Below are positions 4,301-58,111 of a stretch of 64,000 nt of DNA, in pieces; the first letter of the stretch is position 1; each line of letters starts with the position of its first letter. A program made the position numbers and the translations under genes. This stretch comes from a virus, in UHGV virus genome UHGV-1558314. One strand, given 5' to 3'. Below the pieces are notes generated by a model that was given only the letters and a program-made list of their open reading frames with translations, was not told the origin of the DNA and ran no database searches.

Positions 4301-7300
4301 TTAGAACAGAGCAATGATGTTGTCAACAAACATAAAGCACTTTTGCAGCAATTCAGCTGTCGGCGTCATCTCATATGCTTTGCCATCATACATAAATCGC
4401 ACAGTGACAATGGGTGACACTTCGTCTTTGAATGCAAGCACAGGAACATCTACACCTGCAGTCAATTGCACTTCAACATCCTTGTCAGCTGCTACATCTT
4501 TAGCAATCACTGCAATATCTTGACAACGACCAGCAGCTACTGCATATCTAACGTTTGTCAATGTAGCAGACATGTCAGCAAGAGCTTGCATGATTTGCTG
4601 TTGAGTAAATTGCTCAACCGACTTCTTTGCAGCCTTGACAGCTTCGATATCTTGCGTATTTGCAAGAATCAATGCTACCACTGCAGGGTCAGAAGTAGTC
4701 CACCAACGACCATCAATTGCAAGCCACAGTCGATTGCCATTGACGTCAATTGCATATGCATATTGAGTGTTTGGCGCCAATGTGACTTTTCGAGTGTTCT
4801 TTAAGAACTCTGCTGCATCAGGTGCTGCAACAATGTTCTTGACAAATGACGGCAGCATTTCAGCTTCAAATGTTTGTGTAGCTTCAAAGACACCGCCACG
4901 TGCATCGTCATCAATTCTGCCTGCAAAGCGTTTGCAGATTTGAATGATTGTAGCCATGCCTACTGTTGGAACGACTTGACGTTTCATTGCAGGCATTTGC
5001 AGAGGCATTGTATCTTGCGCAATGTACAATGATGTCGCATCAACAGTGTCAAGTACTCGTGCAATGTCTGCAGTATCAACAATTACAAACCAGTCGCCAT
5101 CATGGCAGACAATGAGTTGCTTGCTGTCATTTGCATATGTCAGCAATACTGCAATGTCATTTTTGATTGAGATTGCAGGAATCCATGCTTGTTGCAGAGG
5201 TAAGTCAAGATTTGGTGTGCCGCATGGATAAAGCGCAGATGGCTGCATAATTGAGCGGCAATCAAAACCTATTGAACTTACAAGCTGCAGAACTTCGCCA
5301 CGAATGCAAGCATTACTTTGATTCTGTGTCATGTCATATGCAAGCCAACTGCAAATTGCTTTGATTGATGACACTGGAAATGCTACGCCAATTGTGCTGT
5401 ATGCAATCTTGCCGTCTGCTGACAATGACTCATCAACTGCAATGCCAGCATCATTGAACAATGACATATCAATTGAACAATGGAATTCGCCACCAGGCAT
5501 TGGACCTGCAGCAATGCCATAGCCATGACCAAGTGACAGCCATTCTTTCATTGCATCTGAATTGTATGACGAGAACTTGTACAGCACATATGACTTATGC
5601 GGGTCACTAACTGACTTGCGAATCTCCATCTTGGCGCCTGCTTTCTTTGCAATTGCTTTAATGTTATCGGCATGCTTTTTTGCCTCAGACTTGTCAAATT
5701 TGCCTTCATCAAGTTGAGCAATCTTGCCAAGCGCATAAGCAGTCCATGCAATTAACAATTGATTCAGTGCACCAACTTCTGACCACGACTTTTCTGCAAA
5801 CCATGAGCCAAGACCAGATTTGTCAAGGGTTTCTTTGCGTTCAGCTTTTGTTGTGCTGTCCCACCACTTGCCAGTCGCAGGCAATACAATGTCTTTGATT
5901 TGCTCCTTACGAAGCTCATTGACACCAATTTTGCCCTCATGAACATGCGCATTTGCATGATATGCTCTAAGAGCAGCCAACGCAGCATCATATGAGTCAT
6001 AGTCTTGCGGCCAGAATTCCCCATTCTTGCCAATGATGCCCCATACACCCTTTGACTTTTCTTGGATGACAGAGTCTTTGTCACCGGCAGCTTCATTGAC
6101 AAATGCCGTGTTAAGATATGCAATGACATGCTGAAGCTCTTTGTCGTCTGCAGACTCATTGACGTTCTTAGCGTAATCACCAAGAATTGATTCAACTTTG
6201 CCACGCAAATTGCTTGGCATATCATCAAGGTCAAGATTGCCGTACTTCGTAACTTCTGGTTGAGACAATCCAAGCAATTTCAACACCTTATCGCGGTACT
6301 TATTTGCAAGCTTCTTCCAAATCCAGCGGAATGTTACAGCGCCAATCAAGAATTTGATGAGGCCCTCATCAAGTACATGTTGTTCACGCAAATATGCTGT
6401 AATGCATGAACGTTGACCATCAGTCAAGTCAACCCACATTTTATCAAGCAATATTGAATCTGGGTTGCTTGCAATGCCAGCGCCGCTGCGGTTGTACACA
6501 TTCATTCTGTCAATTGCTGGTGTTGCGTCATTGTCCCACCAAGCTTGTGCATATGAACATCCAGCAGGATTTGAGATTGCTTCATTAATGTACATGACAT
6601 TGAAGATTTCGCAAAGACGCTTGCGACATTCAGGTGACATAACTTGCCATTGTGTTGCAATTTTGTCTTCTGACCACTGCAACAGCATGTCTGCAAATTC
6701 TTTACCTGCGCATTGCTCAACTGCACCATGTTTCGAACGCCAATAATTGTCAGGCTCAATTTGTGCAATTGCATGAACAAATGAAGTCAGATTGTATGAC
6801 GCAGATTCGCAAATGCAATGCTGTTCAATGTAGCTACGAACAGCAAGTGCAGTGTCTTCCGGCAAGTTGCTATATGGTGACTCATAGATGTTTGCTTGCT
6901 GATTGAGCATATGTGGAGCAACTTCTGCAATGATTTGTTTGCGAACATTCAATGGCCATGCATTCCATGAAGATTCTACAGATTCATCAAGATGCATGCC
7001 AATTGCATCCATAACTGCATCAGCATCTTTGCCCGACAGTTCGTCAAACAATTTGTCTACTACTGCATAATCATATCGCAAATTTGGCTGAGCCTTTGCA
7101 AGAGCGTCCATCATTGCTTTGCGTTCTTGTTTTGACGCATTATTCCATGTGCCAGCATACAATTCTGCTGTCGCGCTTTCACAGACAATATCTGCAGCAG
7201 CATATGCTTGCTTCATAATGTCCATGAAGATTGACTTCATTTTTGGATGCATCACATGATACTTTTCATTGTAGATGTCAAGTACGCCATAAACATCTTT

Positions 7301-37707: not shown

Positions 37708-38376
37708 ATGTCAACAAACAATCATGGCAAGCTCAGATTACTTGAGCTCAAAGAAGCACAGCCATATGATACACTCAAAATTGGCATCGACGTATCAGTA
37801 GATGCTACTGGCATGTGCATGATATTTGGCAAGACTGTCGCATTGTTCAAATTTACACCACATTTGCCGCCAGAAGATGACAGTTCAGATGATGTGAACT
37901 TTGTGCAGTTCAACAAAATCTATCTGCAAACATCATCTTCTGCAAGAGAACGCTCAAAAATGCATACTCGACATACGCTTGCAAATAAGATTGTTGATGC
38001 TATTGACATGTTCATGCAGGAAATCTGGCCGAACAGTCCAGCAAACATTCAAATTGTCACAGAAGGGTCTGCATATGGCTATGCTGCGCATAACTCTAAC
38101 AGCTTAGTTGAACTTGCTGAATTTAGAAGCGTGATTTTAGAAAGAGTCTATCATCGTTGGCCTCTTGGTACACATCTAAGTCTTGATGTCATTGCGCCAA
38201 AATCATTGAAGAAACACGCGACTGGTGATGGCAAAGCAGACAAACTAAAGATGATTGAAGCTGCAATCGCTAAGTTGACACGCATTCATTGGGCAGGCAA
38301 AATTGACGATGAATGTGACGCATTGCATCTTTGTATGTATGAGCCATTAAGCAATCCTGAACCACGACTTTGGTGA
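37708..38376 (+). CDS. RuvC-like Holliday junction resolvase
   Basis: LKIGIDVSVDATGM (first Asp), VTEGSAYGY (Glu), DDECDALHLCMYE (Asp/His). Confidence 0.8.
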   Translation: MSTNNHGKLRLLELKEAQPYDTLKIGIDVSVDATGMCMIFGKTVALFKFTPHLPPEDDSSDDVNFVQFNKIYLQTSSSARERSKMHTRHTLANKIVDAIDMFMQEIWPNSPANIQIVTEGSAYGYAAHNSNSLVELAEFRSVILERVYHRWPLGTHLSLDVIAPKSLKKHATGDGKADKLKMIEAAIAKLTRIHWAGKIDDECDALHLCMYEPLSNPEPRLW

Positions 38377-39111: not shown

Positions 39112-40908
39112 TTAGCTTTGTGATGTTTTGGCAGGTTCATCATCAATAGGCTCATCATCAACTGACTCATCATCACCTGTATCAATGCCAGAAGCCGCAG
39201 CAAGTGAAACATCATTAGCGACGCCTTGCTGTTCAAGTTGTTGTTGAGCTTGTTTTGTTTGAATTGCGACAAGTCTTGCAGCTTCCATTGCAAGCTTAAG
39301 ATTCTCTTGAAGTTCGATATCAAGCTGTTCAGCATTAGCTTGCATGTCTTCTTTGCTTAAGCCAAGGTACTTGTTGATAAGCCAATTGCTCGAGAAGAAC
39401 GGGCGTTCAGTGTCAGACATGTTAAGTGAACGAACAAGTGAACTGCGAATATCTTCGATTGTATGTATACGCTTCTGAAGCAATGTGAGCTCCATTTGCG
39501 TTTGGAAGTGATTGTATCGATTGAACTTAAGTTTTAGTGCATTCAACACATCATTGTCACCAATGTAGTTATTGTTTTTGATGCACATCAAAACATACAC
39601 AGGCTTCAATATGATTGCAACGCCAAATCTACGCATCAAAGCTGAAATGAAGATAGCAAAGCGCCGCTCATCACGTTGAATTGACTCTTCAGAAACATTC
39701 CACATGCCACCGCCGTCATCGAATCTGCTTAGAGGCAGCTTTGACAAGCGTTGCAAGTTATTGCGGAAATATGTGACTGCTGAAGTGTCAGATAAGTCAG
39801 GCATGCCTGTGCCAATTGTTTGAATGTTGGGTTTGCCTGCATTAGTATCAGCCAGCCAAAATTCGCTATTGAAGGGCACAGATGCTTCACCGTTAACTTG
39901 GAGTTCGCCGGTTTGATTGTCGAATTCAATTTTTTCGTGGTACTTATTCATTGCTTTACGCAATGTTTCCTGTGCAGCAGCTTTCAGTTTACCGCCAGTA
40001 GGAATTGTGATAAGTGAACGAAAACGAGCAGCTGTCGTAGCATATGCAATGCGGCTTCGCTCCAAAATTCTAAGTAAGTTAAACGCACGAACAAGACGCT
40101 CAAAGTATGACATAGACCCAACCATGTCATCATTCCACTGCAAATATGCTACTTGCGAATCAAGCAAGTTGATTTTTTCTGAATTATTAGACACAAATGC
40201 TGGTGCTTTAACATCAAACATTGTATGTGTCTTAAACATATCTTGTTGAGACTTATCATACTGCCAGAAGAACATGTCGCCCTTCTTCATAGGTGTCAAT
40301 GCAAACGCGTTCAACTTTCTGATGCCAACAACATCAGTTGGCTCATCTGCATTATCAAACACAATCTCATAGCCAAGTCTACCTCGTACAAGATATTCAC
40401 GCAACAATGCTTTGACATCTTGTTTACGAGGTTCTGAGTTCAACCCATTGAATGCATACATCAAATAGACTTGCTTGAATGCATCCATAAAGTCATCTTT
40501 GATTGTCTGCTTTGTTGCGTCATCTATCTCAAGTTTATCGATGTCGCAAAAATCAGGCTCGCAAAAGAAATTGCTATCAGAATTGAACACGATGCACTCA
40601 TCAATCATGCGGTCAAGAATGTCATCGAGTTCCGGTTCTGCACTTAAGATGTCATATTTTTTGGCTCGAAGATAACTTGTCAATCCAAAAAGATTCTTTT
40701 TAGGTGACTCTTTCTGATTGAACACGTCATCAGTAGACAACACAACAACTTCTTGGTCATTGATGTTATGCTCACCTGTATATGCTGCTTTCTCCAAATC
40801 TGCATCAGACCCAGACTTGTGCACGTTCAATTGCTGCAATGGGCTGTCTTTTGGAATTGAGCGCAATGCATCAGTCCCCAGATATGTTCGTTTGGTCTTT
40901 TTAGCCAT
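39112..40908 (-). CDS. Hypothetical protein (598 aa) with acidic C-terminus; possible portal protein
   Basis: Size and acidic C-terminal tail DDESVDDEPIDDEP; no Walker A, so not terminase; function tentative. Confidence 0.65.
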   Translation of the reverse strand: MAKKTKRTYLGTDALRSIPKDSPLQQLNVHKSGSDADLEKAAYTGEHNINDQEVVVLSTDDVFNQKESPKKNLFGLTSYLRAKKYDILSAEPELDDILDRMIDECIVFNSDSNFFCEPDFCDIDKLEIDDATKQTIKDDFMDAFKQVYLMYAFNGLNSEPRKQDVKALLREYLVRGRLGYEIVFDNADEPTDVVGIRKLNAFALTPMKKGDMFFWQYDKSQQDMFKTHTMFDVKAPAFVSNNSEKINLLDSQVAYLQWNDDMVGSMSYFERLVRAFNLLRILERSRIAYATTAARFRSLITIPTGGKLKAAAQETLRKAMNKYHEKIEFDNQTGELQVNGEASVPFNSEFWLADTNAGKPNIQTIGTGMPDLSDTSAVTYFRNNLQRLSKLPLSRFDDGGGMWNVSEESIQRDERRFAIFISALMRRFGVAIILKPVYVLMCIKNNNYIGDNDVLNALKLKFNRYNHFQTQMELTLLQKRIHTIEDIRSSLVRSLNMSDTERPFFSSNWLINKYLGLSKEDMQANAEQLDIELQENLKLAMEAARLVAIQTKQAQQQLEQQGVANDVSLAAASGIDTGDDESVDDEPIDDEPAKTSQS

Positions 40909-41053
40909 TTTTGTATTGCTTTGAATATCTATACACGTCTTGTCAATTTGACATGACCGCAGTCATCTGCAATTATTTAGTAGTGTGTATATGCGTAATT
41001 TGCGTTGCAATTTGTAGTCAAATCACGAACTTCATATGTTGTAGCAGACTCAT

Positions 41054-42172
41054 TCATAGTAATGATGCTTGTAAAATGTCTATAATGTGCTCATCAGTTT
41101 CACATAAATCTGTATCACTTATTATGCAATATGCAGACAATTCAGTAGATGCATTAACATATGCAGTCATTGCAGCAGCTTTTGCTATGACTATATCATC
41201 ATGCAGCCATTTAGCAGGCTTTATTTCAACAACAATTTGCGCGTTATTAAAATGCACAACAAAATCCGCGATATATACATGTGTAGCACTATTGAACACA
41301 TACTTACACCTTGCAGTTTCTATTGAATAGTGTAACTTATTGCGTTCACAAAAGTGTATAAATTTGCGTTCATTGTTTGAACGAAACGACGCTTTAGCTG
41401 ATAAACAGTATTTTGCAGTTTGAACATAGCCTCTCATGCAGTTCATAAATGGCTGCAATGACATTATGTCTCGACCATTTAACAATGCTCTATGCTGTGC
41501 TTCTGCACGTCTACGTTTAACTTCTGGTTTAGCATCTGTAATTTTGCGAGTAGCACGTATACGTTCTTTAACACCAGGTCGAGCCATGATTGCTTTTGCA
41601 GAAGCACTTCGATGCGCATGTGTTTCAGGCCTTGCGTTAGCAATTAGCATCCCATGCAATTGAGTGTCTTTAACTTCTTGACGCTGCATTGCTATTCGAG
41701 TGCTCTGTGAAATCTTTTGCCTAACTGCAGGATTTGACATTGCACGTTTTGCGCGTTCTGACGCCTTTACACGTAGTTCTGTATTATTTGCATACATGGC
41801 ACGTTGAGTATTACTAATTTTGGTGCCAATGCGTTGTTTATATTCTGCATCTGCAAAGTATTTTGCATTTCTGCATGCATGACTGCAAACATCGCCGTCA
41901 CCATAGCCACGTGTTACACACCACCATGTTAATTGCTTGCCACATATAGAACATGTTGGGATATCTGAGTCATCTTTAATTTCACATAGATATTTGTCAT
42001 ACCATTGCTTCAATGAATAGCCTACAATAGGTTCAGCCTTTCTACTAAAATACGTGCTAAATATCCATGTATCAAGTTCAGGCACGTATAACTGAAACTT
42101 TGTACGTGTTATTTGCTTAACAAATTTGTCCCAATTCTTAGCGGCATTGCGCTTAGCGTCTTCAGCAGTCAT
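41054..42172 (-). CDS. Zinc-finger / tandem-repeat DNA-binding protein with C-terminal PD-(D/E)xK nuclease domain (homing-endonuclease-like)
   Basis: CSICGK...CSHAC; four to five about 17-aa repeats (KISNTQRAM, KASERAKRAM, KISQSTRIAM, SASAKAIMA); YIADFVV...QIVVEIKP. Confidence 0.7.
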   Translation of the reverse strand: MTAEDAKRNAAKNWDKFVKQITRTKFQLYVPELDTWIFSTYFSRKAEPIVGYSLKQWYDKYLCEIKDDSDIPTCSICGKQLTWWCVTRGYGDGDVCSHACRNAKYFADAEYKQRIGTKISNTQRAMYANNTELRVKASERAKRAMSNPAVRQKISQSTRIAMQRQEVKDTQLHGMLIANARPETHAHRSASAKAIMARPGVKERIRATRKITDAKPEVKRRRAEAQHRALLNGRDIMSLQPFMNCMRGYVQTAKYCLSAKASFRSNNERKFIHFCERNKLHYSIETARCKYVFNSATHVYIADFVVHFNNAQIVVEIKPAKWLHDDIVIAKAAAMTAYVNASTELSAYCIISDTDLCETDEHIIDILQASLL

Positions 42173-42179
42173 TAGAGCA

Positions 42180-42926
42180 TCAAATCATTCTGTTATCACT
42201 AACTGCAAAGTTGATATTGTTGTCTTTCAGATATTGCATGTACATTGCAAATACTTGTTCTGCTGTCATTTTGTTGTACTTTGATGATGGTATGAAAATT
42301 GCTTTCGACCAGTTCTCATAAGTTATTTCAATCAAACCTGTAATGCGTTCTGGAATGTATTCACGAAATGCAAACGCGCCGCCATATGGCTGTACAATTG
42401 GCGCGATTTTGTGCCAATCAACAAACACAGGTGTTTGTTCTGTTCTATAAAGCTCGCCTTTATATTTTGATGCAAATGCTCTAAAAATTGCTTCTGCAAT
42501 CACAAAGCGAACTTCAAGTGGCACAAAGTGTAAGCTTAAGCCAACAGAACGCCATTCACCAGATTGTGTGTAAAAGCCGCCCATACAAAAACATAGGGGC
42601 GTTTCGTCCCACACTGCAAGCCAATCTTTTGTTTTAGGGTCACTGTATACAAACATATACAGCTTCCCAGGCTCCATGTACTTTCTGCGAATCTGCACAT
42701 CAGGATTCGTAGCATATGATTTGAACCATGCAGCAGCTTCTCTACCACCGTTTGGCATTTTGTACCACGGATTGCTTCGAATTTCTTTGCCAAGGTCATA
42801 TTGACCAGACTTTACCAAACGATTGAATAATCGTTGTGCTGCAGTCAATATTGAACGTCCTACTGACTTCGCTTTGTCAATAAAAGACGTTTTTGCTTGT
42901 GTATCTAATGAATTAAACTTTGCCAT
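42180..42926 (-). CDS. Hypothetical protein (248 aa)
   Basis: ORF track; no motif. Confidence 0.65.
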   Translation of the reverse strand: MAKFNSLDTQAKTSFIDKAKSVGRSILTAAQRLFNRLVKSGQYDLGKEIRSNPWYKMPNGGREAAAWFKSYATNPDVQIRRKYMEPGKLYMFVYSDPKTKDWLAVWDETPLCFCMGGFYTQSGEWRSVGLSLHFVPLEVRFVIAEAIFRAFASKYKGELYRTEQTPVFVDWHKIAPIVQPYGGAFAFREYIPERITGLIEITYENWSKAIFIPSSKYNKMTAEQVFAMYMQYLKDNNINFAVSDNRMI

Positions 42927-43073
42927 ATCATCATCGTTTCGGCTTTGTGACTACGTGCCAAGCATTGCATTCTTGACACCACACAGCTCTCTTTGTTTGT
43001 TTAGCATTTAGCACTGCTTGCTTAGCTACTTCTGCATTTGCAGCAATCTTATCATAGCATTTCTTTGTGCAAC

Positions 43074-43523
43074 TCATTTGAAGAATCGTTCAGTTATGAT
43101 TTTGAACTTAACATTTTGTTGTTTGCAATATGCAATTGCGGCATTCCACTTTGCGACATTTTTGCAATATGTTTCTTTCGCATAATTTGACGCAGACCGA
43201 CTTGGGCATTGCGTTTCATGCCATGGTTTCACCTCAACGACATATGTAGAATCTGCGGTTTTGAACAAAAAGTCGGGCCAATATGTGTGCGTTACGCCAT
43301 CAAGCTCATATGCAATTGGCAGTGTCTCAGATGACCAAGCAAGAACCTTTGAACTCATATCGCAAAGCTTGCAAAATCTGAATTCAAGTGAACTGCGGTA
43401 TATGATTGTCTTGTCTGTCGCGTCTTTGCCTTTGTACTTATCTGGGTTCATGCATCTGTAGTAGCCTTGCTTGTAGGGCCCTGATTTGTTTGGCTTAAGT
43501 TGCTTAATGTTCATTGCAGTCAC
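43074..43523 (-). CDS. PD-(D/E)xK-family nuclease (149 aa)
   Basis: YWPDFLF ... YVVEVKP (PD ... ExK) core. Confidence 0.7.
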   Translation of the reverse strand: MTAMNIKQLKPNKSGPYKQGYYRCMNPDKYKGKDATDKTIIYRSSLEFRFCKLCDMSSKVLAWSSETLPIAYELDGVTHTYWPDFLFKTADSTYVVEVKPWHETQCPSRSASNYAKETYCKNVAKWNAAIAYCKQQNVKFKIITERFFK

Positions 43524-43769: not shown

Positions 43770-45149
43770 TTAGCTATTAACTTCCCACATATTGTCAATA
43801 TCAAGTACAGGCCACATTCTACGTTGAAGCTCAACTGTTTGTGACAGTTTGCCTGACTTTGTGTAGTTCCATTTCAATGCAGTGCTTATGTATTTGCCGC
43901 TCAATCGCAAATTCTTTGCATTTTGAGATACACTTGGCTGTCGCTTTGGCGAATCTGTAGCCTTTTCATCAGGTTTTGTTGGCTCTTCAAGCTTGTTCTT
44001 GATTGACCATATCTCAACGTTTAGTGTTTTGAATGCATATAGCTGGTTCAGTGTTCGTTGTAATGTGCATGACAAAATTACTCTATCAAGCATGCCTTGA
44101 GACCAATCATACATTGCAGCAGCTTCATAAAAATGCTCATGCACATTTGAGTGGTCTGGGTCTCGTTTAGCAAGTTGAATTGCAGTTTGCTCTGTATAAT
44201 CTGCAAAAGTGTCCCAAATCTTATCTGTAGATTCTTGTTTGATGACAGGCTGAGACGTCTGCACATTTATGCTTTGTTCACCCAAATTATGCTGCATTGA
44301 CACAACATTGACTGCCGATGGCCTACGCATAGACGCTGAATTGTATGTCATGCCATATTTTGTGAATCTTGACATCCAATTTTCACCATTGACATTGTTA
44401 TTCAAGATGAGCTTTTGCGGCTTTGGCAATTCTTTGCCATCAATGTTGTCAATTGTTATTGTGTCATCAAGCGGAGTCTCTTCCATTTCTGCAAACACAT
44501 CAACAATCGTCAAACGATACCAAGGGTCAATGAATGCTTTGACAACTTTGTTTTTGCCAAGCCACATATGTCGTAATACATGACGCCTAATGAAGCTTAG
44601 ATATGTTTCATTGCATTGCAGCCATGTCATTTTGTCATCTGTGCCATCGATATTTGTGACAAGGCCAAGACCTGTATCTTCGCAAATCTTCTTGATGACA
44701 TCAATGCTTGTCATGTCATCAAATGATTGAACCATTGTTTGCTTCAATGCATCATCAACAAACAAATGCGCAGAAATTCGAATGTTGCCATTGTCTTGTT
44801 CTGCATTATCAATCAAAAAGTCAGCTTTGATGACCTTGAATTCTGTGTCAGCAGTATTGCCAATGTAAAGTGTTGCAATGTCGTGTACAAGTGGAAAGTC
44901 ATTGAACATAAAGTTTGCATTGTCATTAAATGACAACTCAAATTGTGGCAAAAAGTCCTTGCCATATGACAGCTCAAAGTACTGAATTGACCCAAAGGGC
45001 ACATTCGTGTTGCACACATACACAAGTGGCACAAGTTTACCTGCAGACTTCAGCACAGATTTTGTCGAGTCTTCATTGACAGGGTCATAATTGACCATTA
45101 TGTCTCGCACTTCATCAATCAAAGTGCCCTTCAGAACTTCTTTGAGCAT
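43770..45149 (-). CDS. Hypothetical protein (459 aa), possibly structural
   Basis: ORF track; no motif. Confidence 0.7.
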   Translation of the reverse strand: MLKEVLKGTLIDEVRDIMVNYDPVNEDSTKSVLKSAGKLVPLVYVCNTNVPFGSIQYFELSYGKDFLPQFELSFNDNANFMFNDFPLVHDIATLYIGNTADTEFKVIKADFLIDNAEQDNGNIRISAHLFVDDALKQTMVQSFDDMTSIDVIKKICEDTGLGLVTNIDGTDDKMTWLQCNETYLSFIRRHVLRHMWLGKNKVVKAFIDPWYRLTIVDVFAEMEETPLDDTITIDNIDGKELPKPQKLILNNNVNGENWMSRFTKYGMTYNSASMRRPSAVNVVSMQHNLGEQSINVQTSQPVIKQESTDKIWDTFADYTEQTAIQLAKRDPDHSNVHEHFYEAAAMYDWSQGMLDRVILSCTLQRTLNQLYAFKTLNVEIWSIKNKLEEPTKPDEKATDSPKRQPSVSQNAKNLRLSGKYISTALKWNYTKSGKLSQTVELQRRMWPVLDIDNMWEVNS

Positions 45150-46480: not shown

Positions 46481-47736
46481 TAACTGTCATACGACCAGTG
46501 ACCACAGTCATACACTGGCACAAATCCAGTGTCAAGCATTTCTTGCTCATTAAAGTCATCATCAAGCAAGTGTTCACCCGATTTTGTATTAACCCAGTGC
46601 TTCTTAATTGTGCATTCATCAACCGCAAAGGGATTAAGTACATTGTCAGTACAGTCAATGAACGCATCATTCAAATGCGCTTCAATGATATGAAGCACAA
46701 TTTCTTGGTCGTGCCAATCAAATATCATGAGTGGCGTGTAGCCACATGCAATTGCAAGTTGTTGCTTCCACCAATGATAGTTTGGCTATTTTGCTTCTGC
46801 AGCATTTCGTTTAAAGCCATACACGCTATTATGAGTATGCGTCGGGTTAACGTCAATTAGCAGATTGCCATAATACAGGTCATATGACGTTATGCCAACA
46901 CCATGTTCAAACTCAAAATGCACACCAAGATGTTCTTCAATGTATGATTGCCACCATCTGTTTGGCGCAGATATGATTTGCCCATTTGCTTGCATACATT
47001 TATTTGTCATGCAAAACCATGGCACACCGTAACGTTCCATACAGGTTTTTGAAATTGCAGCAAGCCATTCATCTTTGTCTCTATGCGGCCATGCATAACC
47101 ATAACGCAGACGGCATGTTTGTTGAGCTTTAGCAACGATTGGCGCTAAACGTTCACCGTATATTTCACGTTTAGTTGCGATGGCTTTGCGTGGATTAGTC
47201 CATCCAGCATCACCCCATCGCTCAAGCTTCGTTTGCTGAGATTTTTCAACAATCAGTTCAAGATTCTCACCATATTTTTGACGACGAGTTTGCATTGCTG
47301 CAACATAATCTGTAATGCATCTATGGCCATACAAACGTTCTTTTGTCGCACATTGAACATCTACTGGACCTTGTGGATAGCCATAGCGTTCCATATTCGT
47401 TTGACGAATATGTGCTTTATCGCCATATGAACTGCCGTAGCGTGCAACTTTAGTGGCAATTGTTTGCTTGATGTTGCCTGCTTTAGAACCATAACGAGCT
47501 TCTTTAGTTGCTACGCATTTTTGTTTGACTTCTGCTCTGTTCCAATTATGCTCAACGCCATGTTTACGAAGATGGCCAATTTTCATGTTGTACACGTTTT
47601 TGATATGACCATGAGATGTCTTACGTGGTGCATATCGTACAAATGGTGTTTCTGCAAGCAACTTATCTCGTTCAGCTTCAAGCTCTTTAATTCGAGCTTC
47701 AAGAGCTTCACCAGTCAAAGGCTCTACATGTTTCAT
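46480..47736 (-). pseudogene. Homing-endonuclease-like paralog 4 interrupted by a single in-frame TAG (46786-46788)
   Basis: ORFs 46786..47736 and 46480..46728 are in the same frame; intervening codons read *PNYHWWKQQLAIACGYTPLMIFDW and align with intact paralogs. Confidence 0.7.
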
Positions 47737-51369: not shown

Positions 51370-52662
51370 CTACAACAATGACGGCACTCGTTGAGTTTCA
51401 AGTGGGTCGCTGACATTGATGCCTGTGTATGCAACAAGTCGTTGTATTGGGCCAAGTACGAGTTTTTCGAACATGAGTCGTTTGTTCATTGGCGGCACAT
51501 CTGGCATATACTTCGGTGTCGGCATTTCGCCTGGTGCAAAGCCAAATGCATCGCAATATTGACGAGAGCCAATTGGGATATTTGACAAATCTGACTTTGC
51601 TCTGTCAACAAAGTAGTAGAACACTCGACCGCCTTCAATCAATGGGTATCGTGTTTCCAATCCATGAGCTTTTACAAGACGATTATGCCAACAACATGCC
51701 CTGTACTGAGGCAGTACACCTTTTGCTAACTGCCATTCGCCATCATAGCTTAACACATAGTCATGATACTTGTTTGCATTGACATATGCACAAAGTTTTT
51801 CCAAGTCTTGCTCAGCTTCAAAGCGTTTCCATAATTTCTGTATGAGCTTTGGATATGTCGCAGAAGTCAATTCACCTCTGAACATTTTTTTGAATGCATA
51901 ATCAAGCATTTGCCTAACAAGCATTGATGAGCCTGTTTGAATAAGTTCGATGCCCTTACCTTGAATATGCTCAGTAGGGTCTTCAAATACTCGACCATCT
52001 ACATATATTTGAGACTTCAAATACTTTTTCTTTTGGGCAAATAATGCAGTATCAGAAATCGTCTCAAGGTCGAACATTAGCACAGAATCTCCATGACGCT
52101 TTGCAAGGTCATTTGCATATGACCTATTGAACAGTTCTTCCATACGATATTTGAATATCGCAAGAATCAAGTCATACCAATTTTTGCCTGTGTAACCAAT
52201 TGACTTAACTGTCGGCTCAAAGTGAATGTACAAAGAGTCTGTGTCAATATACAGCACTTTGTCTTCATAGGGTTCTTGCTTTGGCGACACAGACAAATCA
52301 AAATTGCCTTTCAATTTGGGGTCATTGCGCAGCTTTTCATGCAATTCATAATCACACCACCATTTATTGTTGAGATAGTCATTTGCTACTCGTTCGCCAA
52401 AGTGAATGAAGTTACGCCCTTCTGCAGTAATTGATTCTGCAACTGCCATATTGAAGAAGTGATAGAATCGATTACTTGTCGCACCATAAATACTGTTCCT
52501 TAGTGTTTTGAACGTCACCTGCAATGACGCATGTTTAAGCGACTCTTGTATTGCAAAGCCACGTAATTCAAATAGACGCTCAGTAGACAACTGACTCAAA
52601 TCGCCAGTTAAATCTACTCCATCTATTTCAATTTTTGACATGTCTATCTGAGCTTCTGCCAT
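51370..52662 (-). CDS. Family-B DNA polymerase, C-terminal part (motifs B and C)
   Basis: FKTLRNSIYGA (KxxxNSxYG) and LYIDTDSLYI (DTDS). Confidence 0.9.
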   Translation of the reverse strand: MAEAQIDMSKIEIDGVDLTGDLSQLSTERLFELRGFAIQESLKHASLQVTFKTLRNSIYGATSNRFYHFFNMAVAESITAEGRNFIHFGERVANDYLNNKWWCDYELHEKLRNDPKLKGNFDLSVSPKQEPYEDKVLYIDTDSLYIHFEPTVKSIGYTGKNWYDLILAIFKYRMEELFNRSYANDLAKRHGDSVLMFDLETISDTALFAQKKKYLKSQIYVDGRVFEDPTEHIQGKGIELIQTGSSMLVRQMLDYAFKKMFRGELTSATYPKLIQKLWKRFEAEQDLEKLCAYVNANKYHDYVLSYDGEWQLAKGVLPQYRACCWHNRLVKAHGLETRYPLIEGGRVFYYFVDRAKSDLSNIPIGSRQYCDAFGFAPGEMPTPKYMPDVPPMNKRLMFEKLVLGPIQRLVAYTGINVSDPLETQRVPSLL

Positions 52663-54959: not shown

Positions 54960-54988
54960 TATTGTACAACATGTGTTAACTTTTTGCA
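54960..54988 (-). promoter_or_regulatory. Sigma70-like promoter (ATGCAA-N17-TACAAT)
   Basis: Plus attgtacaac at 54960-54969, ttgcat at 54983-54988. Confidence 0.5.
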
Positions 54989-56175
54989 TGACCACAATCA
55001 TACACCGCAACATAGCCAGCATCAATCATCTCTTGCTCATCTTGTCCGCAATCTTCAATATGTTCTTTTGTCTTCAAATGACACCAGTGTTTGCGAATTG
55101 TTGACTTGTCATCTGACAATTGCGGATTGAGTGCGAAGTCAGTTGAGTCTACTGGTTCACCTGCAAGATGCTTTCTAATGACATCAATGACAACATCAAA
55201 TGGCATCCAGTCAAACACTGTAATGCAAGTGTAGCTGTGTTTGATAGCAAGTTGTGTTTTGTTAAAATGGTTGTCATATGGTCGTTGCCAATTATGATTT
55301 GCATTGAACACAATATTTGCAAAACTACGCGTGCTATTATGAGAAATAGTTGGGTTAAGTTCAATTAGCAACTTATGCGATTTGCAAACAATGTCATATG
55401 ACAATGACGTGTTCTCAAATGTAAATTCTTGCTCAAAATGCACATCAAGGTTATCAAATAGCATGTTAAGCCTTGTGCATATTTTTGTATTGTGTGCAGA
55501 CTTTGCTTTAGATTTTGCTCTGCATTGAGGCAATTGGCATGGCCACACTACACCATGACGTGACAATGTTGTTGCACGAATTGCGTCAAGATTCGTTGAT
55601 GGATTGCCATATCGAGCTATTCGAGTTTGCCTTGCTTTGTCTATATTGCCTGGGCCTGCATTGCCCCATCGCTGCAACTTTGTTTGTCGAGCTTGTTCAT
55701 GATTGCTGTAATATGGGTCTCCATATCGTTCAAGCTTTGTTTGCTTTAACTTACTCATGTCGCCAAGCCCATTGCCATACTTAGCACGCTTTGTTTCTAT
55801 GCCTTTCTTTAGATTGCCTCGTTTGTTGCCATATTTTGCAATGTTGTGTGCATTACGTTTTTCAATGTCACCAAACCCATTGCCATATCGTGCAAATTTT
55901 GTTGCTTGCGCTTTTTCAAAATTGACTGCTAATGTGCCATAACGAGCATACTTAGTTGCTTTGCCCTTATCAACGACTTCTTTACGATGCAATGCAGCTT
56001 CAACACCATATTTTCGCAAATTTGTAATTTTTGCATTGTATCGTCGTCTAATTGTTGCATGAGTGTTGTTACGAGACCCTGTTCTGACATATTCAGTTGC
56101 AGCAAGTTCAGCATCACGTAACTGCTCAAGTTCTGCAATTCGTTGTTCAAGTTCAGCGCCTACAAGTGGTTTCAT
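54976..56175 (-). CDS. Homing-endonuclease-like protein, paralog 5, between the two polymerase ORFs
   Basis: Seven about 17-aa repeats with (K/R)YG core; LLIELNPTISHNSTRSF ... SYTCITVFDW ... VAVYDCGH. Confidence 0.75.
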   Translation of the reverse strand: MKPLVGAELEQRIAELEQLRDAELAATEYVRTGSRNNTHATIRRRYNAKITNLRKYGVEAALHRKEVVDKGKATKYARYGTLAVNFEKAQATKFARYGNGFGDIEKRNAHNIAKYGNKRGNLKKGIETKRAKYGNGLGDMSKLKQTKLERYGDPYYSNHEQARQTKLQRWGNAGPGNIDKARQTRIARYGNPSTNLDAIRATTLSRHGVVWPCQLPQCRAKSKAKSAHNTKICTRLNMLFDNLDVHFEQEFTFENTSLSYDIVCKSHKLLIELNPTISHNSTRSFANIVFNANHNWQRPYDNHFNKTQLAIKHSYTCITVFDWMPFDVVIDVIRKHLAGEPVDSTDFALNPQLSDDKSTIRKHWCHLKTKEHIEDCGQDEQEMIDAGYVAVYDCGHAKS

Positions 56176-56183
56176 GTGTTGTT

Positions 56184-57689
56184 TTACAATTTGATTGCGC
56201 CTCTACGAGCAAGCTCTTCTTCAATCAATCGAACATGATTGTTAGAATACCAGAACTGAATTTTTTTGTGATAATTACGCTTGTCTCCAAGTTCTTCCTG
56301 TACTGCTTTGTACATGCTTTTTTCATGATTGTCATACAAGCAGTCATTAACGGACACAAAGTACTCTGGCAATGACTTGTAATGCGCAATTTCATCAGGA
56401 TTTGTCAGACGTCTGATAAAGTTATCCGGTGATACATTGCATGATTTCATTGAACTTGGATAGAGTGAATTTGCATCAACACAAACAACTTTATGAGCCC
56501 AATGGTTAAATGGTTGCTTCACAAAGCCACCTTCAAATGCATGCACAACATTTTCTGGACCGCCTTGAGCACATACGACTTTGCCACCATATTTGTTGTA
56601 CAAATATGTCATCATGACGCCCTCAGATTGCTTAACTGGGCCTTGACAGTGGTTCATATCAATGTTTGACACATTTGACAAGCCCATCACATTTGATATC
56701 AAGTCAGTTTTTGCAGCAATCATCGCATTGACCATCGTATCGACAGCATTATATGCAATGAACGTGCATGGATGATACAAATACAGCTCTTTAAGTGTAC
56801 AATCATAGGGCAGCTTACCTACACCGAACATACGATGTGCAATATAGTCAAGTCGCAATGACTCTTTTTGCCACACTGAATAGTCGTATGTGTCCATGAG
56901 CTGCATGTAGTCATCAATGTACTTGTGATATGGCATACCATTGCCCCAGACAGTTCTGCCAACTGGAGATGCCAATGCTAAATCAATATTGTGCATTGCG
57001 CATCGATTTTTGACATAGATGTTGTCGAAGCCATTGATGTTCCAGCCTGTCAATGCAGGAATGTTTTTGAAGAGCTTAGTCACCCAAAAATGCAACAATT
57101 CATGCTCATTTGCATGTTGAAAGATTTTGACAGTTGGATGTTCTTTCAAATACGCAGCAAAGCAATGTTGACCCATGTACTCTTGAATGATGCCATTGAC
57201 AAACTCAAATGCATCATCCAGTGTTGGGTTTTGTTTGCCACAGCTTTTGCGCAAATCATCATCATTCAACAAGTCAACAGTAGTCTGAATGACACAATTG
57301 CATTGTTCATCGCATGTACTTATTGCATTAATGGGCATTTCAGCTTTGTCAGGCTTTGGAAAGCCATTGCCAATTTCAGTCTCAATATCGTAAAAGTATA
57401 ACTTTGGTCTACGATAAGCAAACAATTCAACTTTGTCAGCTTCAGGCAATTCAAATAAGAATTGCAGCAAGTCAAATTGATTGAATCGTTTTGCTGTGAC
57501 TCGAGTCACAGGCAATTTGCGCCAATCTTGAATATCTGCATATTGCGGCTCTACATGGTCTGATATTTGCCATACTGGAAATTGATATGGCTGTTCACAG
57601 ACTGGGTATGTTTTGATGTCAATGCCACCTTGCTCATTAACGTATGAAACTTCAATGCCATGTGACAAATATGCTACGTCGACAATCAT
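56184..57689 (-). CDS. Family-B DNA polymerase, N-terminal part (3'-5' exonuclease motifs + polymerase motif A)
   Basis: LYFYDIETE (Exo I), NINGFDNIYV (Exo II), YNAVDTMV (Exo III), VCVDANSLYPSS (motif A); ATG at 57687-57689. Confidence 0.9.
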   Translation of the reverse strand: MIVDVAYLSHGIEVSYVNEQGGIDIKTYPVCEQPYQFPVWQISDHVEPQYADIQDWRKLPVTRVTAKRFNQFDLLQFLFELPEADKVELFAYRRPKLYFYDIETEIGNGFPKPDKAEMPINAISTCDEQCNCVIQTTVDLLNDDDLRKSCGKQNPTLDDAFEFVNGIIQEYMGQHCFAAYLKEHPTVKIFQHANEHELLHFWVTKLFKNIPALTGWNINGFDNIYVKNRCAMHNIDLALASPVGRTVWGNGMPYHKYIDDYMQLMDTYDYSVWQKESLRLDYIAHRMFGVGKLPYDCTLKELYLYHPCTFIAYNAVDTMVNAMIAAKTDLISNVMGLSNVSNIDMNHCQGPVKQSEGVMMTYLYNKYGGKVVCAQGGPENVVHAFEGGFVKQPFNHWAHKVVCVDANSLYPSSMKSCNVSPDNFIRRLTNPDEIAHYKSLPEYFVSVNDCLYDNHEKSMYKAVQEELGDKRNYHKKIQFWYSNNHVRLIEEELARRGAIKL

Positions 57690-57700
57690 ATTATTATCTT

Positions 57701-58111
57701 TTAGAATAGAGATATTGTACAACAATTTGATTCAGGTTGCCATTCTACAATATGCGCATCAAAGTGTTTGTTAAGCCAATGTGCAAGTATGTGTCTATGA
57801 CAAAATGCAGATGGTCTGCACCAACATAACAATACAATGTCTCGTTCGCCTGCAAAAATCTTTATGCGATGCAGCATCAAACTTATCTGTGACAATGCAG
57901 CGTCAAGTTTTGCTGCATATTGCTCTGCATATTGTGCATTGTCAAGCAAGCCTGCTTTATGCAAACGAACAAGTGACATGTAATCAGGCATGACGTCAGT
58001 CCATGTAAAATCTGCTATGAAGCCCTTAGGCTTTGTTGCAGACACTTGAACAAGAAATGCGTTATCAGGCAGATGCCTGCATGCATAATATGAAGTCAAG
58101 ATTCTTGTCAT
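57701..58111 (-). CDS. Hypothetical protein (136 aa), DUF488-like
   Basis: DIVLLCWCRPSAFCHRHILAHWL resembles the conserved DUF488 core; tentative. Confidence 0.55.
   Translation of the reverse strand: MTRILTSYYACRHLPDNAFLVQVSATKPKGFIADFTWTDVMPDYMSLVRLHKAGLLDNAQYAEQYAAKLDAALSQISLMLHRIKIFAGERDIVLLCWCRPSAFCHRHILAHWLNKHFDAHIVEWQPESNCCTISLF
57714..57742 (-). promoter_or_regulatory. Sigma70-like promoter (-10 TACAAT) for polymerase N-part
   Basis: Plus attgtacaac at 57714-57723; -35-like ttgcca at 57737-57742. Confidence 0.45.

What the first reader, a model, noticed from the sequence alone, without database searches (positions are those of the whole stretch)
41054..43523. Two further nuclease genes with different architecture
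41054..42172 combines a CxxC zinc finger, four to five about 17-aa repeats and a PD-(D/E)xK domain; 43074..43523 is a compact PD-(D/E)xK nuclease with the PDF...EVK core. Together with the five-member family this makes at least seven putative selfish or repair nucleases in 64 kb.
Basis: partly seen in the sequence, partly recalled or inferred. Interest (0 to 1): 0.4.

Follow-up and report, generated by a model that had tools for sequence, protein, structure and literature searches.

The report
Mobile endonuclease beside core gp4 nuclease
One gene is the phage's ordinary head-completion nuclease (the T4 gp4 orthologue). The other is most likely a selfish homing-endonuclease gene inserted between two conserved virion genes, built from a gp4-like cutting domain and a seven-unit helical array that probably binds DNA.

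Summary
Both ORFs are real, and both carry an intact PD-(D/E)xK nuclease core.

**ORF B (43074..43523, minus strand)** is the orthologue of T4 gp4, the head-completion nuclease.
- It is 33% identical to T4 gp4 (E 1e-17) and almost the same length (149 vs 150 aa).
- It lies just upstream of the gp2 DNA-end protector, as in T4.
- Relatives occur in 2563 phage records.
- It is a core morphogenesis gene, not a selfish or repair gene.

**ORF A (41054..42172, minus strand)** has four parts: an N-terminal domain, a Cys4 zinc knuckle, seven (not four to five) 17-aa helical NUMOD3-like repeats, and a nuclease domain homologous to gp4 (hhalign 99.65%). The two genes therefore share one catalytic module.
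- In a near-identical phage (flanks 95-98% identical), ORF A is absent as a gene-sized 1116-bp indel. An unrelated Hef-like endonuclease gene sits about 70 bp further on.
- The window keeps only the two ends of that Hef-like gene, as a deletion scar.
- In 28 of 31 related loci, gp2 abuts the portal gene directly.
- Relatives of ORF A split the terminase gene gp17, or sit beside a DNA polymerase fragment, in other phages.

ORF A is therefore best read as a free-standing homing endonuclease gene of an uncharacterised family. Cleavage was not tested. Overall the finding is ordinary and of moderate interest.

The parts
41054..42172 (-). ORF A, 372 aa: putative free-standing homing endonuclease (N-terminal domain, zinc knuckle, seven helical repeats, gp4/TnsA-like PD-(D/E)xK nuclease)
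   Evidence: ORF. Domain hits. Family alignment. Structure model with mean pLDDT 82.5. Absent from the syntenic slot in relatives.
41987..42121 (-). ORF A N-terminal domain (aa 18-62), three strands then two helices, with the conserved 'YYxPExDxW...QxYYD' signature. Function unknown; presumed DNA binding.
   Evidence: Conserved in 15 homologues; W36 invariant. pLDDT 87-93.
41873..41953 (-). ORF A zinc knuckle (aa 74-100): C74-x2-C77 ... C96-x3-C100
   Evidence: C74, C77 and C96 invariant in alignment A1. Regex match.
41477..41848 (-). ORF A array of seven ~17-aa helical repeats (aa 109-232), NUMOD3-like, consensus P-E-V-K-x-R-x-S-x-x-x-K
   Evidence: Periodicity z = 6.2, 0 of 20,000 shuffles. 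Seven helices in the model. The equivalent region hits Pfam NUMOD3 in 2 of 15 homologues. The repeats are shared with GIY-YIG and T5orf172 proteins.
41057..41419 (-). ORF A nuclease domain (aa 252-372), gp4/TnsA-like PD-(D/E)xK; predicted catalytic residues E268, D303, E316, K318
   Evidence: hhalign against the gp4 family: 99.65%, E 4.6e-25. Foldseek hits are PD-(D/E)xK nucleases only. Invariant residues.
41061..42176 (-). The 1116-bp segment present in the window and absent from the near-identical phage L005. It is essentially the ORF A coding sequence; the last sense codon and the stop lie in the conserved flank.
   Evidence: blastn break points. Junction sequences read directly.
42180..42926 (-). 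gp2 DNA-end protector homologue, immediately upstream of ORF A (7-nt spacer)
   Evidence: phrog_429 at 1e-29. PF26869 Phage_T4_gp2. 28% identity to T4 gp2, E 5e-15.
42243..42665 (-). Mosaic patch inside gp2. About 60% DNA identity to L005, between flanks that are 97-100% identical. It ends 66 nt before the ORF A insertion point.
   Evidence: gp2 aa 1-94 are 99% identical, aa 95-248 are 58% identical.
43074..43523 (-). ORF B, 149 aa: orthologue of T4 gp4, the head-completion nuclease
   Evidence: Tn7_TnsA-like_N at 2e-18. phrog_218 'head closure' at 1e-36. 2563 phage records. 33% identity to T4 gp4, E 1e-17. Order gp4 then gp2, as in T4.
40929..41005 (-). Deletion scar of a Hef-like (DUF7487) endonuclease gene. 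It keeps the first ~18 nt (ATG mutated to ACG) and the last 44 nt (encoding ADDCGHVKLTRRV*) of the 412-aa gene that is intact in L005.
39112..40908 (-). gp20 portal gene, the downstream neighbour that bounds the variable slot
   Evidence: Pfam Portal_T4 at 1.9e-59.

Best explanation
The window comes from an uncultured T4-like myovirus in which gp4, gp2 and gp20 (portal) form a conserved co-directional block.

ORF B is the gp4 orthologue. In T4, gp4 is a small, non-specific PD-(D/E)xK DNase needed for head completion and head-tail joining. By homology ORF B does the same job and is a core gene.

ORF A is a free-standing homing endonuclease gene inserted as a promoter-less cassette 7 nt after the gp2 stop codon. 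The inferred mechanism has these steps:
1. The N-terminal domain, the zinc knuckle and the seven NUMOD3-like helices bind a long DNA site.
2. The C-terminal gp4-like domain (E268, D303, E316, K318) cuts the DNA.
3. When a related phage lacking ORF A co-infects the same cell, that phage's gp2-gp20 region is cut.
4. The break is repaired from the ORF A-carrying genome, which copies ORF A and neighbouring sequence across.

Shown here: domain composition, intact catalytic residues, homology to gp4, the gene-sized presence/absence difference, and occupation of the same slot by another endonuclease family.

Inferred: site-specific cleavage, the position of the target, and active mobility.
For: ORF B:
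- Pfam, PHROG and tblastn all point to the gp4 family.
- The pairwise match to T4 gp4 and the T4-like gene order support orthology.
- It is 97% and 58% identical in the two closest relatives, at the same position.
- The published gp4 nuclease role is cited in PMC7824862.

ORF A:
- Fifteen full-length homologues share the architecture, and all hit the TnsA-like N domain. The catalytic residues are invariant.
- The model has pLDDT 82.5, and Foldseek returns only PD-(D/E)xK nucleases.
- hhalign to gp4 gives 99.65%.
- The L005 phage is 95-98% identical in the flanks but lacks exactly 1116 bp, which equals ORF A.
- The same intergenic region in L005 holds a Hef-like gene, of which the window keeps only the two ends.
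- gp2 abuts the portal gene (28-134 bp) in 28 of 31 related loci.
- A ~420-bp patch of about 60% identity lies in gp2, 66 nt from the insertion. This fits exchange around a break.
- Relatives of ORF A split gp17 in Tegunavirus, Krischvirus and Shewanella phage Thanatos-2.
- Another relative sits directly after the exo half of a DNA polymerase, where the window has a Hef-like gene instead.
- The repeats are shared with GIY-YIG and T5orf172 proteins.
- These are the features described for free-standing homing endonucleases in PMC2988022 and PMC10448857.
Against: - No cleavage data exist for ORF A or for any member of its family that I could find.
- ORF A was seen in only one phage (3 contigs carrying the same protein sequence). 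Spread between lineages has therefore not been observed.
- The divergent gp2 patch is separated from ORF A by 66 identical nucleotides. It could be an unrelated recombination event, and which of the two phages is the recombinant is unknown.
- ORF A itself does not reach Pfam's NUMOD3 or TnsA-like cut-offs.
- The relative arrangement of domains in the model is uncertain (pTM 0.38).
- Its position inside a packaging and head-completion gene block would also fit a co-opted function.
Confidence: 0.68

Rival explanations
1. ORF A is a co-opted, sequence-targeted paralogue of gp4 that works with gp2, gp4 and the portal in DNA end processing or packaging. It would not be a mobile element.
For: It sits between gp2 and gp20 in the same orientation, 7 nt after gp2. 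Its nuclease domain is homologous to gp4.
Against: A phage with 97-99% identical gp4, portal and baseplate proteins lacks it entirely, as do 30 other relatives. It therefore cannot be needed for morphogenesis. Its relatives occupy unrelated slots (gp17, DNA polymerase) in other phages.
Confidence: 0.08
2. ORF A is a nuclease used against competitors or the host, for example to exclude co-infecting phages or degrade host DNA, without copying itself into the cut genome.
For: It has an intact nuclease core plus a long DNA-binding array. Marker exclusion by phage endonucleases is documented (PMC2988022).
Against: There is no match to any PADLOC defence model. The gene-sized indel and the replacement by another endonuclease gene in the same slot are the signature of homing cassettes. 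In practice this rival overlaps with homing, because exclusion is a consequence of the same cut.
Confidence: 0.1
3. ORF A is a decaying, catalytically dead remnant, or a DNA-binding regulator derived from a homing endonuclease.
For: Homing endonuclease genes commonly degenerate. The same intergenic region holds a deletion scar of another one. The paralogue at 46786..47736 is truncated relative to L005.
Against: The ORF is full length compared with its homologues. All residues that are invariant or nearly invariant across the family are present: S265, E268, D303, E316, K318, K331.
Confidence: 0.08
4. ORF A is a structure-specific resolvase or repair nuclease of the T7 endonuclease I or archaeal Hjc type.
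For: There is a weak Pfam Phage_endo_I hit (E 0.0016, 18.6 bits). Foldseek also returns Hjc and RecU.
Against: The Pfam hit is below the 29.1-bit cut-off. The best profile relationship is to gp4. The window already has a RuvC-like resolvase at 37708..38376. Resolvases do not carry long sequence-reading arrays and are not presence/absence polymorphic between near-identical phages.
Confidence: 0.03
5. ORF B is also a selfish or repair nuclease.
For: It has a PD-(D/E)xK core of the TnsA type.
Against: Relatives occur in 2563 phage records, annotated as head completion protein in the records listed. It is found at the same place in all relatives examined. Its length and gene order match T4 gp4. 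It has no DNA-binding extension.
Confidence: 0.03

Closest known systems
T4 gp4 head-completion nuclease (Pfam Tn7_TnsA-like_N; phrog_218)
   Same: ORF B matches it in length (149 vs 150 aa), sequence (33% identity, E 1e-17), catalytic residues S-x-x-E, D and E-x-K, and position directly upstream of gp2. ORF A's C-terminal domain belongs to the same domain family.
   Different: A 48-aa zinc-ribbon-like ORF lies between ORF B and gp2. ORF A adds about 250 N-terminal residues of DNA-binding modules and is not conserved in position.
Free-standing homing endonucleases of T-even phages (seg genes, GIY-YIG; mob genes, HNH), reviewed in PMC2988022
   Same: Intergenic insertion between conserved essential genes. 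Promoter-less cassette in an existing transcription unit. Two-part design with a nuclease and a modular DNA-binding region. Presence/absence between close relatives, and replacement by a different endonuclease gene in the same slot, as segH and hef replace mobC and mobE.
   Different: The catalytic domain is a gp4/TnsA-like PD-(D/E)xK, not GIY-YIG or HNH. It is C-terminal rather than N-terminal as in GIY-YIG enzymes. No activity data exist.
Endonuclease ORFs that split the terminase gene gp17 (Yersinia phage phiR1-RT g167; Krischvirus phiS gp173; Shewanella phage Thanatos-2 TH2_002)
   Same: Best phage matches of ORF A (33-43% identity in the nuclease domain). They have zinc-finger motifs, a NUMOD3-like unit and the motif YITDF...YEIKP.
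   Different: They have one repeat unit instead of seven and lack ORF A's N-terminal domain. They sit inside gp17 rather than between gp2 and gp20.
[quoted passage not shown]
   Same: Short helical units of about 17 residues with a P/S-E-x-basic-x-K-x-S pattern. Two of 15 ORF A homologues hit PF07460 in the equivalent region. The same repeats occur in GIY-YIG and T5orf172 proteins.
   Different: ORF A's own repeats do not hit PF07460 at E <= 1. A home-made NUMOD3 profile scores only 7.2 bits, against at most 4.0 bits for 500 shuffles.
Hef-like endonucleases (F-LimIII of Dickeya phage LIMEstone1; Pfam DUF7487; phrog_3339)
   Same: They occupy the same slots as ORF A-family genes: between gp2 and gp20 in L005, and after the DNA polymerase exo half in the window.
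   Different: There is no sequence similarity to ORF A. F-LimIII matches the window's five-member family, not ORF A.
I-Ssp6803I and the Vsr-like/EDxHD enzymes (I-Bth0305I), the known homing endonucleases with a restriction-enzyme fold (PMC2677866, PMC3239194)
   Same: A restriction-endonuclease-like fold used by a homing element. The Vsr-like family also fractures phage genes.
   Different: Neither appeared in any sequence or fold search with ORF A, although I made no direct comparison. ORF A keeps the canonical E...D...E-x-K site of the TnsA/gp4 branch and uses a repeat array for binding.
Tn7 TnsA transposase subunit
   Same: The N-terminal catalytic domain of TnsA is the Pfam family hit by both ORFs. 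TnsA (PDB 1t0f) is among the top Foldseek matches.
   Different: The immediate neighbours are virion genes, not a TnsB partner or other transposon genes, and neither ORF has a TnsA C-terminal domain.

Membership tests
T4 gp4 head-completion nuclease family (ORF B) | Significant full-length sequence similarity to T4 gp4 and its family profile | tested here: met
   BLASTP to T4 gp4: 33% over 138 aa, E 1e-17. phrog_218 at 1.1e-36 over 132 aa. PF08722 at 67.1 bits against a cut-off of 26.5.
T4 gp4 head-completion nuclease family (ORF B) | Conserved catalytic residues of the PD-(D/E)xK core | tested here: met
   S44, E47, D84, E97 and K99 are invariant in 14 gp4 homologues including T4.
T4 gp4 head-completion nuclease family (ORF B) | Conserved position next to gp2, and presence in all relatives | tested here: met
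   Order gp4 then gp2, as in T4. The order gp4-gp2-portal holds in 31 related loci. 2563 phage records carry a relative.
T4 gp4 head-completion nuclease family (ORF B) | DNase activity required for head completion and head-tail joining | not testable with these tools
   Known for T4 gp4 from Benler et al. 2020, as cited in PMC7824862. Inferred here by homology only.
PD-(D/E)xK nuclease superfamily, TnsA/gp4 branch (ORF A C-terminal domain) | Alpha-beta-beta-beta-alpha-beta core fold with the E...D...E-x-K active site | tested here: met
   Model secondary structure for residues 266-371. Foldseek top hits are Bax1, TnsA, MGME1, Cas4, RecU and Hjc, with probability up to 0.98. E268, D303, E316 and K318 are conserved. 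hhalign to gp4: 99.65%.
PD-(D/E)xK nuclease superfamily, TnsA/gp4 branch (ORF A C-terminal domain) | Pfam PF08722 gathering score | tested here: inconclusive
   ORF A scores 23.4 bits against a cut-off of 26.5. All 15 family members hit the model at E <= 0.01; best E 6.2e-14.
Free-standing homing endonuclease gene (ORF A) | Located between genes that are conserved and adjacent in related genomes | tested here: met
   gp2 and the portal gene are 28-134 bp apart in 28 of 31 related loci. In the window they are 1271 bp apart, and ORF A fills the gap.
Free-standing homing endonuclease gene (ORF A) | Presence/absence polymorphism between closely related genomes with clean gene-sized boundaries | tested here: met
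   L005 has flanks 95-98% identical but lacks window 41061..42176.
Free-standing homing endonuclease gene (ORF A) | Two-part protein: a nuclease domain plus a separate modular DNA-binding region | tested here: met
   The DNA-binding role of the N-terminal 232 residues is inferred, not shown.
Free-standing homing endonuclease gene (ORF A) | Site-specific double-strand cleavage of the endonuclease-less allele, with resistance of its own genome | not testable with these tools
   Needs purified protein, or co-infection crosses.
Free-standing homing endonuclease gene (ORF A) | Co-conversion of flanking sequence | tested here: inconclusive
   A ~420-bp patch of about 60% identity lies in gp2, 66 nt from ORF A, between flanks of 97-100% identity. 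This is compatible with co-conversion, but direction and cause are unknown.
NUMOD3 motif (ORF A repeats) | Match to Pfam PF07460 | tested here: inconclusive
   ORF A gives no hit at E <= 1. Two of 15 homologues hit PF07460 in the aligned region, best E 1.6e-7. A home-made profile gives 7.2 bits with four in-register hits, against at most 4.0 bits in 500 shuffles.
Hef-like endonucleases / DUF7487 (ORF A) | Sequence similarity to Hef-like proteins | tested here: not met
   F-LimIII gives no BLAST hit to ORF A but does hit the five-member family. ORF A against L005's 412-aa gene gives E 0.023 over 42 aa only.
Tn7-type TnsA transposase (both ORFs) | Partner TnsB/TnsC genes and transposon context | tested here: not met
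   The neighbours are gp2, the portal and baseplate-region genes. No transposase family appears among the called genes of the 16-kb locus.
T7 endonuclease I junction resolvase (both ORFs) | Pfam PF05367 gathering score | tested here: not met
   18.6 and 17.1 bits against a cut-off of 29.1. PDB endonuclease I chains match ORF B only at E 0.15-0.44.

The most novel reading that the evidence does not exclude
ORF A and its roughly 240 relatives (clusters at 50% identity) may be a separate, experimentally untouched class of homing endonuclease. Its cutting module would share ancestry with the phage's own head-completion nuclease gp4, either recruited from gp4 or as gp4's ancestor. Its target would be read by a variable-length array of 17-residue helices, from one unit in the gp17-splitting genes to seven in ORF A. 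In that case target length, and perhaps specificity, would scale with the number of repeats.
Probability: 0.25. Interest if true: 0.55.

Novelty: new member of a known kind. Interest (0 to 1): 0.3.

Why it matters
The result corrects the count of selfish nucleases in this genome, because gp4 is a core gene.

It also gives a clean natural example of turnover of mobile endonuclease genes at one phage locus:
- one gene has been gained;
- a second, unrelated gene has been lost, leaving a recognisable scar;
- a mosaic patch lies in the neighbouring essential gene.

If ORF A's family does cut DNA site-specifically, it would add a gp4/TnsA-like PD-(D/E)xK type to the homing endonuclease families. It would also link a core virion-assembly nuclease with a selfish element. 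The variable repeat array could interest people who engineer DNA-targeting proteins. None of this is surprising in kind for a T4-like phage.

Tried and rejected
- **Megablast of the region against 50,697 phage records:** no match. The phage is far from cultured ones; the portal is at most 33% identical.
- **Word-indexed protein search with ORF A:** returned only ORF A itself. The exhaustive HMMER search was needed to find the family.
- **The search for related loci with the family alignment:** failed because no stretch was conserved enough.
- **PDB sequence search:** nothing significant for ORF A, and only marginal endonuclease I and TnsA hits for ORF B.
- **NCBIfam:** only sub-threshold hits.
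- **PADLOC:** no hits, so a defence-system reading has no support.
- **Promoter and terminator scans:** no more sites than in shuffled sequence. The T4 late-promoter motif TATAAATA is not enriched and is absent near these genes.
- **Test of whether ORF A is Hef-like:** it is not; the five-member family is.
- **The original Hef paper (PMC1275590):** not held.
- **Literature search for 'homing endonuclease' with TnsA and NUMOD3:** no paper describes this combination. The library covers open-access papers only.
- **Transposase and junction-resolvase readings:** considered and rejected; see the membership tests.
Full report
**Observation**

Both ORFs are present on the minus strand at the stated coordinates. 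ORF A is 41054..42172 (372 aa, ATG start) and ORF B is 43074..43523 (149 aa, GTG start). All genes in this stretch point the same way. In order of transcription they are:

- a 459-aa gene at 43770..45149
- a 104-aa (or 81-aa) ORF
- ORF B
- a 48-aa ORF at 42931..43077
- gp2 at 42180..42926
- ORF A
- the gp20 portal gene at 39112..40908

- There is a zinc knuckle at C74-x2-C77...C96-x3-C100. C74, C77 and C96 are invariant in homologues.
- There is a 17-residue periodicity over residues about 109-232, far beyond chance: z = 6.2, and 0 of 20,000 shuffles reach it.
- There is a C-terminal PD-(D/E)xK core.
- The repeat count is seven rather than four to five. The first unit carries a short insertion, and the AlphaFold model has seven consecutive helices, one per unit.
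- The core motif in ORF A reads ADF...VEIKP.

**ORF B is the T4 gp4 orthologue**

- It hits Pfam Tn7_TnsA-like_N at 2e-18 (67 bits against a cut-off of 26.5).
- It hits PHROG 218 ('head closure', the gp4 family) at 1e-36 over almost its whole length.
- tblastn finds relatives in 2563 phage records, 2488 of them covering at least 80% of the protein. The records listed annotate the match as head completion protein.
- Against T4 gp4 itself it is 33% identical over 138 residues (E 1e-17), and the lengths are 149 and 150 aa.
- In T4, gene 4 is directly followed by gene 2. Here the order is the same, with gp2 recognised by phrog_429 (1e-29), PF26869, and a direct match to T4 gp2.
- The catalytic residues S44, E47, D84, E97 and K99 are invariant in 14 gp4 homologues.
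- T4 gp4 is reported to be a non-specific DNase required for morphogenesis (Benler et al. 2020, as cited in PMC7824862).

ORF B is therefore a nuclease, but a core virion-assembly one, not a selfish or repair gene.

**What ORF A is made of**

At full length ORF A has no close relatives. The word-indexed search of 5.8 billion proteins returned only ORF A itself. The exhaustive HMMER search found 244 cluster representatives at E <= 0.001. About ten of these align end to end at 21-31% identity and are 320-390 aa long. The family alignment shows a shared plan:

- an N-terminal domain with the signature YYxPExDxW...QxYYD
- the zinc knuckle
- a variable number of P-E-V-R-x-K-x-S-x-x-x-K units
- a C-terminal nuclease domain with S265, E268, D303, K318 and K331 invariant and E316 nearly so

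All 15 aligned members hit Pfam Tn7_TnsA-like_N. Two hit NUMOD3 in the repeat region. ORF A's own repeats do not reach Pfam NUMOD3. A small profile I built from classical units in the homologues scores ORF A only slightly above shuffles, with four in-register hits. 'NUMOD3-like' is therefore a resemblance supported through homologues, not a direct match.

The same repeats occur in proteins with GIY-YIG or T5orf172 catalytic domains. That is the kind of module sharing described for homing endonucleases (PMC2677866; PMC10448857).

The structure evidence agrees:

- The model has mean pLDDT 82.5. The pTM of 0.38 reflects flexible domain arrangement.
- Against the PDB the model matches only PD-(D/E)xK nucleases: Bax1, TnsA, MGME1, Cas4, RecU and Hjc. 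E-values are near 0.01 with probability up to 0.98.
- Against viral models it matches 47 proteins at E <= 0.001. These include full-length look-alikes in Bacillus phage SP-15 and Campylobacter phage CP20, proteins named 'Nuclease associated modular domain 3', and a gp4 'Head completion nuclease'.

**The two genes share one catalytic module**

BLASTP between ORF A and ORF B gives 34% identity over 59 residues (E about 1e-6). A profile-profile comparison of the ORF A-family C-terminal domain with a gp4 alignment gives 99.65% probability, E 4.6e-25, over 106 columns. This covers the whole gp4 core. So 'different architecture' means a gp4-like nuclease with about 250 residues of added modules.

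The closest relative is L005, a 174.6-kb IMG/VR contig. Its portal is 97% identical at the protein level, its gp4 97% and its 459-aa protein 99%.

At the DNA level the two phages align continuously up to 3 nt past the gp2 stop codon. The window then has 1116 bp (41061..42176) with no counterpart, and the alignment resumes immediately. In L005 the two flanks, GATTTGATGC and CTATGAATGAG, are separated by just 'GA'. The extra segment is essentially the ORF A coding sequence. Its last sense codon and its stop codon lie in the conserved flank.

About 70 bp further on, L005 carries a different 412-aa gene. It belongs to the DUF7487 family and is 39% identical to window 54976..56175. The window keeps only the ends of that gene: the first ~18 nt, with ATG changed to ACG, and the last 44 nt, still encoding ADDCGHVKLTRRV*. 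This is a deletion scar.

A more distant relative, L006 (portal 60% identical), has gp2 and the portal gene 128 bp apart with no gene between them. Among 31 viral loci where gp4, gp2 and the portal could all be located:

- 28 have an estimated gp2-portal gap of 28-134 bp
- only L005 (1319 bp) and L077 (about 783 bp) are larger

ORF A is therefore an insertion into an ancestrally tight gp2-gp20 junction. The junction has been occupied by two unrelated endonuclease families. gp4 is present in all of these loci.

**Mosaic patch in gp2**

Between the window and L005, gp2 residues 1-94 are 99% identical. Residues 95-248 are only 58% identical, as far apart as either is from L006. At the DNA level the divergent patch runs from 42665 to 42243. 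It is followed by 66 identical nucleotides, and then by the ORF A insertion point.

Exchange of sequence next to an endonuclease gene is what break repair after homing produces (PMC2988022; PMC10448857). The patch is not contiguous with ORF A, however, and its direction is unknown. I count it as compatible rather than demonstrative.

**Behaviour of relatives elsewhere**

- The best matches of ORF A among cultured phages are endonuclease ORFs that split the large terminase gene gp17 into two pieces. This occurs in Tegunavirus (phiR1-RT g167), Krischvirus (phiS) and Shewanella phage Thanatos-2.
- These proteins have zinc-finger motifs, a single NUMOD3-like unit and the motif YITDF...YEIKP.
- A full-length family member, P0003, lies directly after a 507-aa DNA polymerase exonuclease fragment that is 55% identical to window 56184..57725. 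In the window that same slot holds a DUF7487-family gene.

ORF A-family genes and DUF7487-family genes thus replace each other in at least two slots next to essential genes.

It matches PHROG 'homing endonuclease' profiles and the Hef-like F-LimIII of phage LIMEstone1. ORF A does not.

**Mechanism**

I conclude that ORF A is a free-standing homing endonuclease gene carried as a promoter-less cassette. Only 7 nt separate it from the gp2 stop codon, and no promoter or terminator signal rises above background. The inferred mechanism is:

1. The N-terminal modules bind a long site.
2. The gp4-like domain cuts the DNA.
3. In mixed infections, repair copies ORF A into phages that lack it.

Shown here are the modules, the intact active site, the homology to gp4, the gene-sized indel, the turnover at the slot, and the gene-splitting relatives. 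Not shown are cleavage, the target, and present-day mobility. ORF A was seen in one phage only.

Rival readings are less likely because near-identical phages do without the gene and because there is no support from the defence or resolvase profiles. These rivals are an auxiliary packaging nuclease, a pure exclusion nuclease, a dead remnant, a junction resolvase, and a TnsA-type transposase.

**Comparison with what is known, and novelty**

ORF B is already known. ORF A is a new and very divergent member of a family that already exists in databases. Entries are labelled 'endonuclease', 'TnsA endonuclease N-terminal domain-containing protein', phrog_15427 or phrog_22215.

I found no functional study of this family. 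A full-text search for homing endonuclease with TnsA and NUMOD3 found no paper describing the combination, although only open-access papers are covered. In kind it is a free-standing phage homing endonuclease, so I file it as a new member of a known kind.

The family-level point may be worth a bench test: a gp4/TnsA-like catalytic module joined to a variable helical array.

**Verdict**

Interest is modest (0.3).

Noticed in passing
window 40929..41005 (minus strand): The spacer between ORF A and the portal gene keeps the first ~18 nt (ATG changed to ACG) and the last 44 nt (100% identical, encoding ADDCGHVKLTRRV*) of a 412-aa Hef-like gene that is intact in L005. This is a clean deletion scar of a second mobile endonuclease gene.
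   Followed up: yes
window 42243..42665 (inside gp2): A patch of about 60% DNA identity to L005 lies between flanks that are 97-100% identical. At the protein level gp2 is 99% identical before the patch and 58% after it. This indicates recombinational mosaicism in an essential gene next to the endonuclease slot.
   Followed up: partly
It matches Pfam DUF7487, PHROG 'homing endonuclease' profiles, and the Hef-like F-LimIII of phage LIMEstone1. It is unrelated to ORF A.
   Followed up: partly
window 46786..47736 vs L005 1423..2622: The window copy is 316 aa and 93% identical to the first ~297 residues of the 399-aa L005 orthologue. The window copy appears C-terminally truncated and may be a decaying endonuclease gene.
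   Followed up: no
window 56184..57725 and 51370..52662 (minus strand): The family B DNA polymerase appears to be in two pieces. The 513-aa piece is 55% identical to a fragment carrying DNA_pol_B_exo1, and the 430-aa piece carries DNA_pol_B. They are about 3.5 kb apart, separated by a Hef-like gene and four small ORFs. In locus L007 an ORF A-family gene sits right after the exo piece.
   Followed up: partly
window 42931..43077 (minus strand): A 48-aa ORF with a C-x3-C...C-x2-C pattern lies between gp4 and gp2. It was called as a gene in the Logan contig. The DNA here is 93-97% identical to L005. T4 has no gene between genes 4 and 2.
   Followed up: no
L005 7960..8045: The 412-aa Hef-like gene of L005 ends in a threefold tandem repeat, DCGHVKLLAD. 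The window scar keeps one copy. The repeat may have mediated the deletion.
   Followed up: no
L006 4201..4677 and 4755..5240: The more distant relative has two extra ORFs (158 and 161 aa, no Pfam hit) between gp4 and gp2. That junction is therefore variable too.
   Followed up: no
L002 (phiR1-RT), L003 (phiS), L004 (Thanatos-2): In three lineages of Straboviridae the large terminase gene gp17 is annotated in two pieces. A gp4/TnsA-like endonuclease lies between them, or is fused to the first piece.
   Followed up: partly
window 37708..38376 (plus strand): A RuvC-like Holliday junction resolvase (phrog_159 at 1.9e-13; Pfam RuvC exactly at its cut-off). It is one of the few plus-strand genes in this region.
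   Followed up: no
whole window: The phage is far from any cultured phage. The best portal matches are 27-33% identical (Chryseobacterium phage MA9V-2, Sphingomonas phage PAU, Tenacibaculum phage PTm1). There is no megablast match to 50,697 phage records. The T4 late-promoter motif TATAAATA is not enriched.
   Followed up: partly
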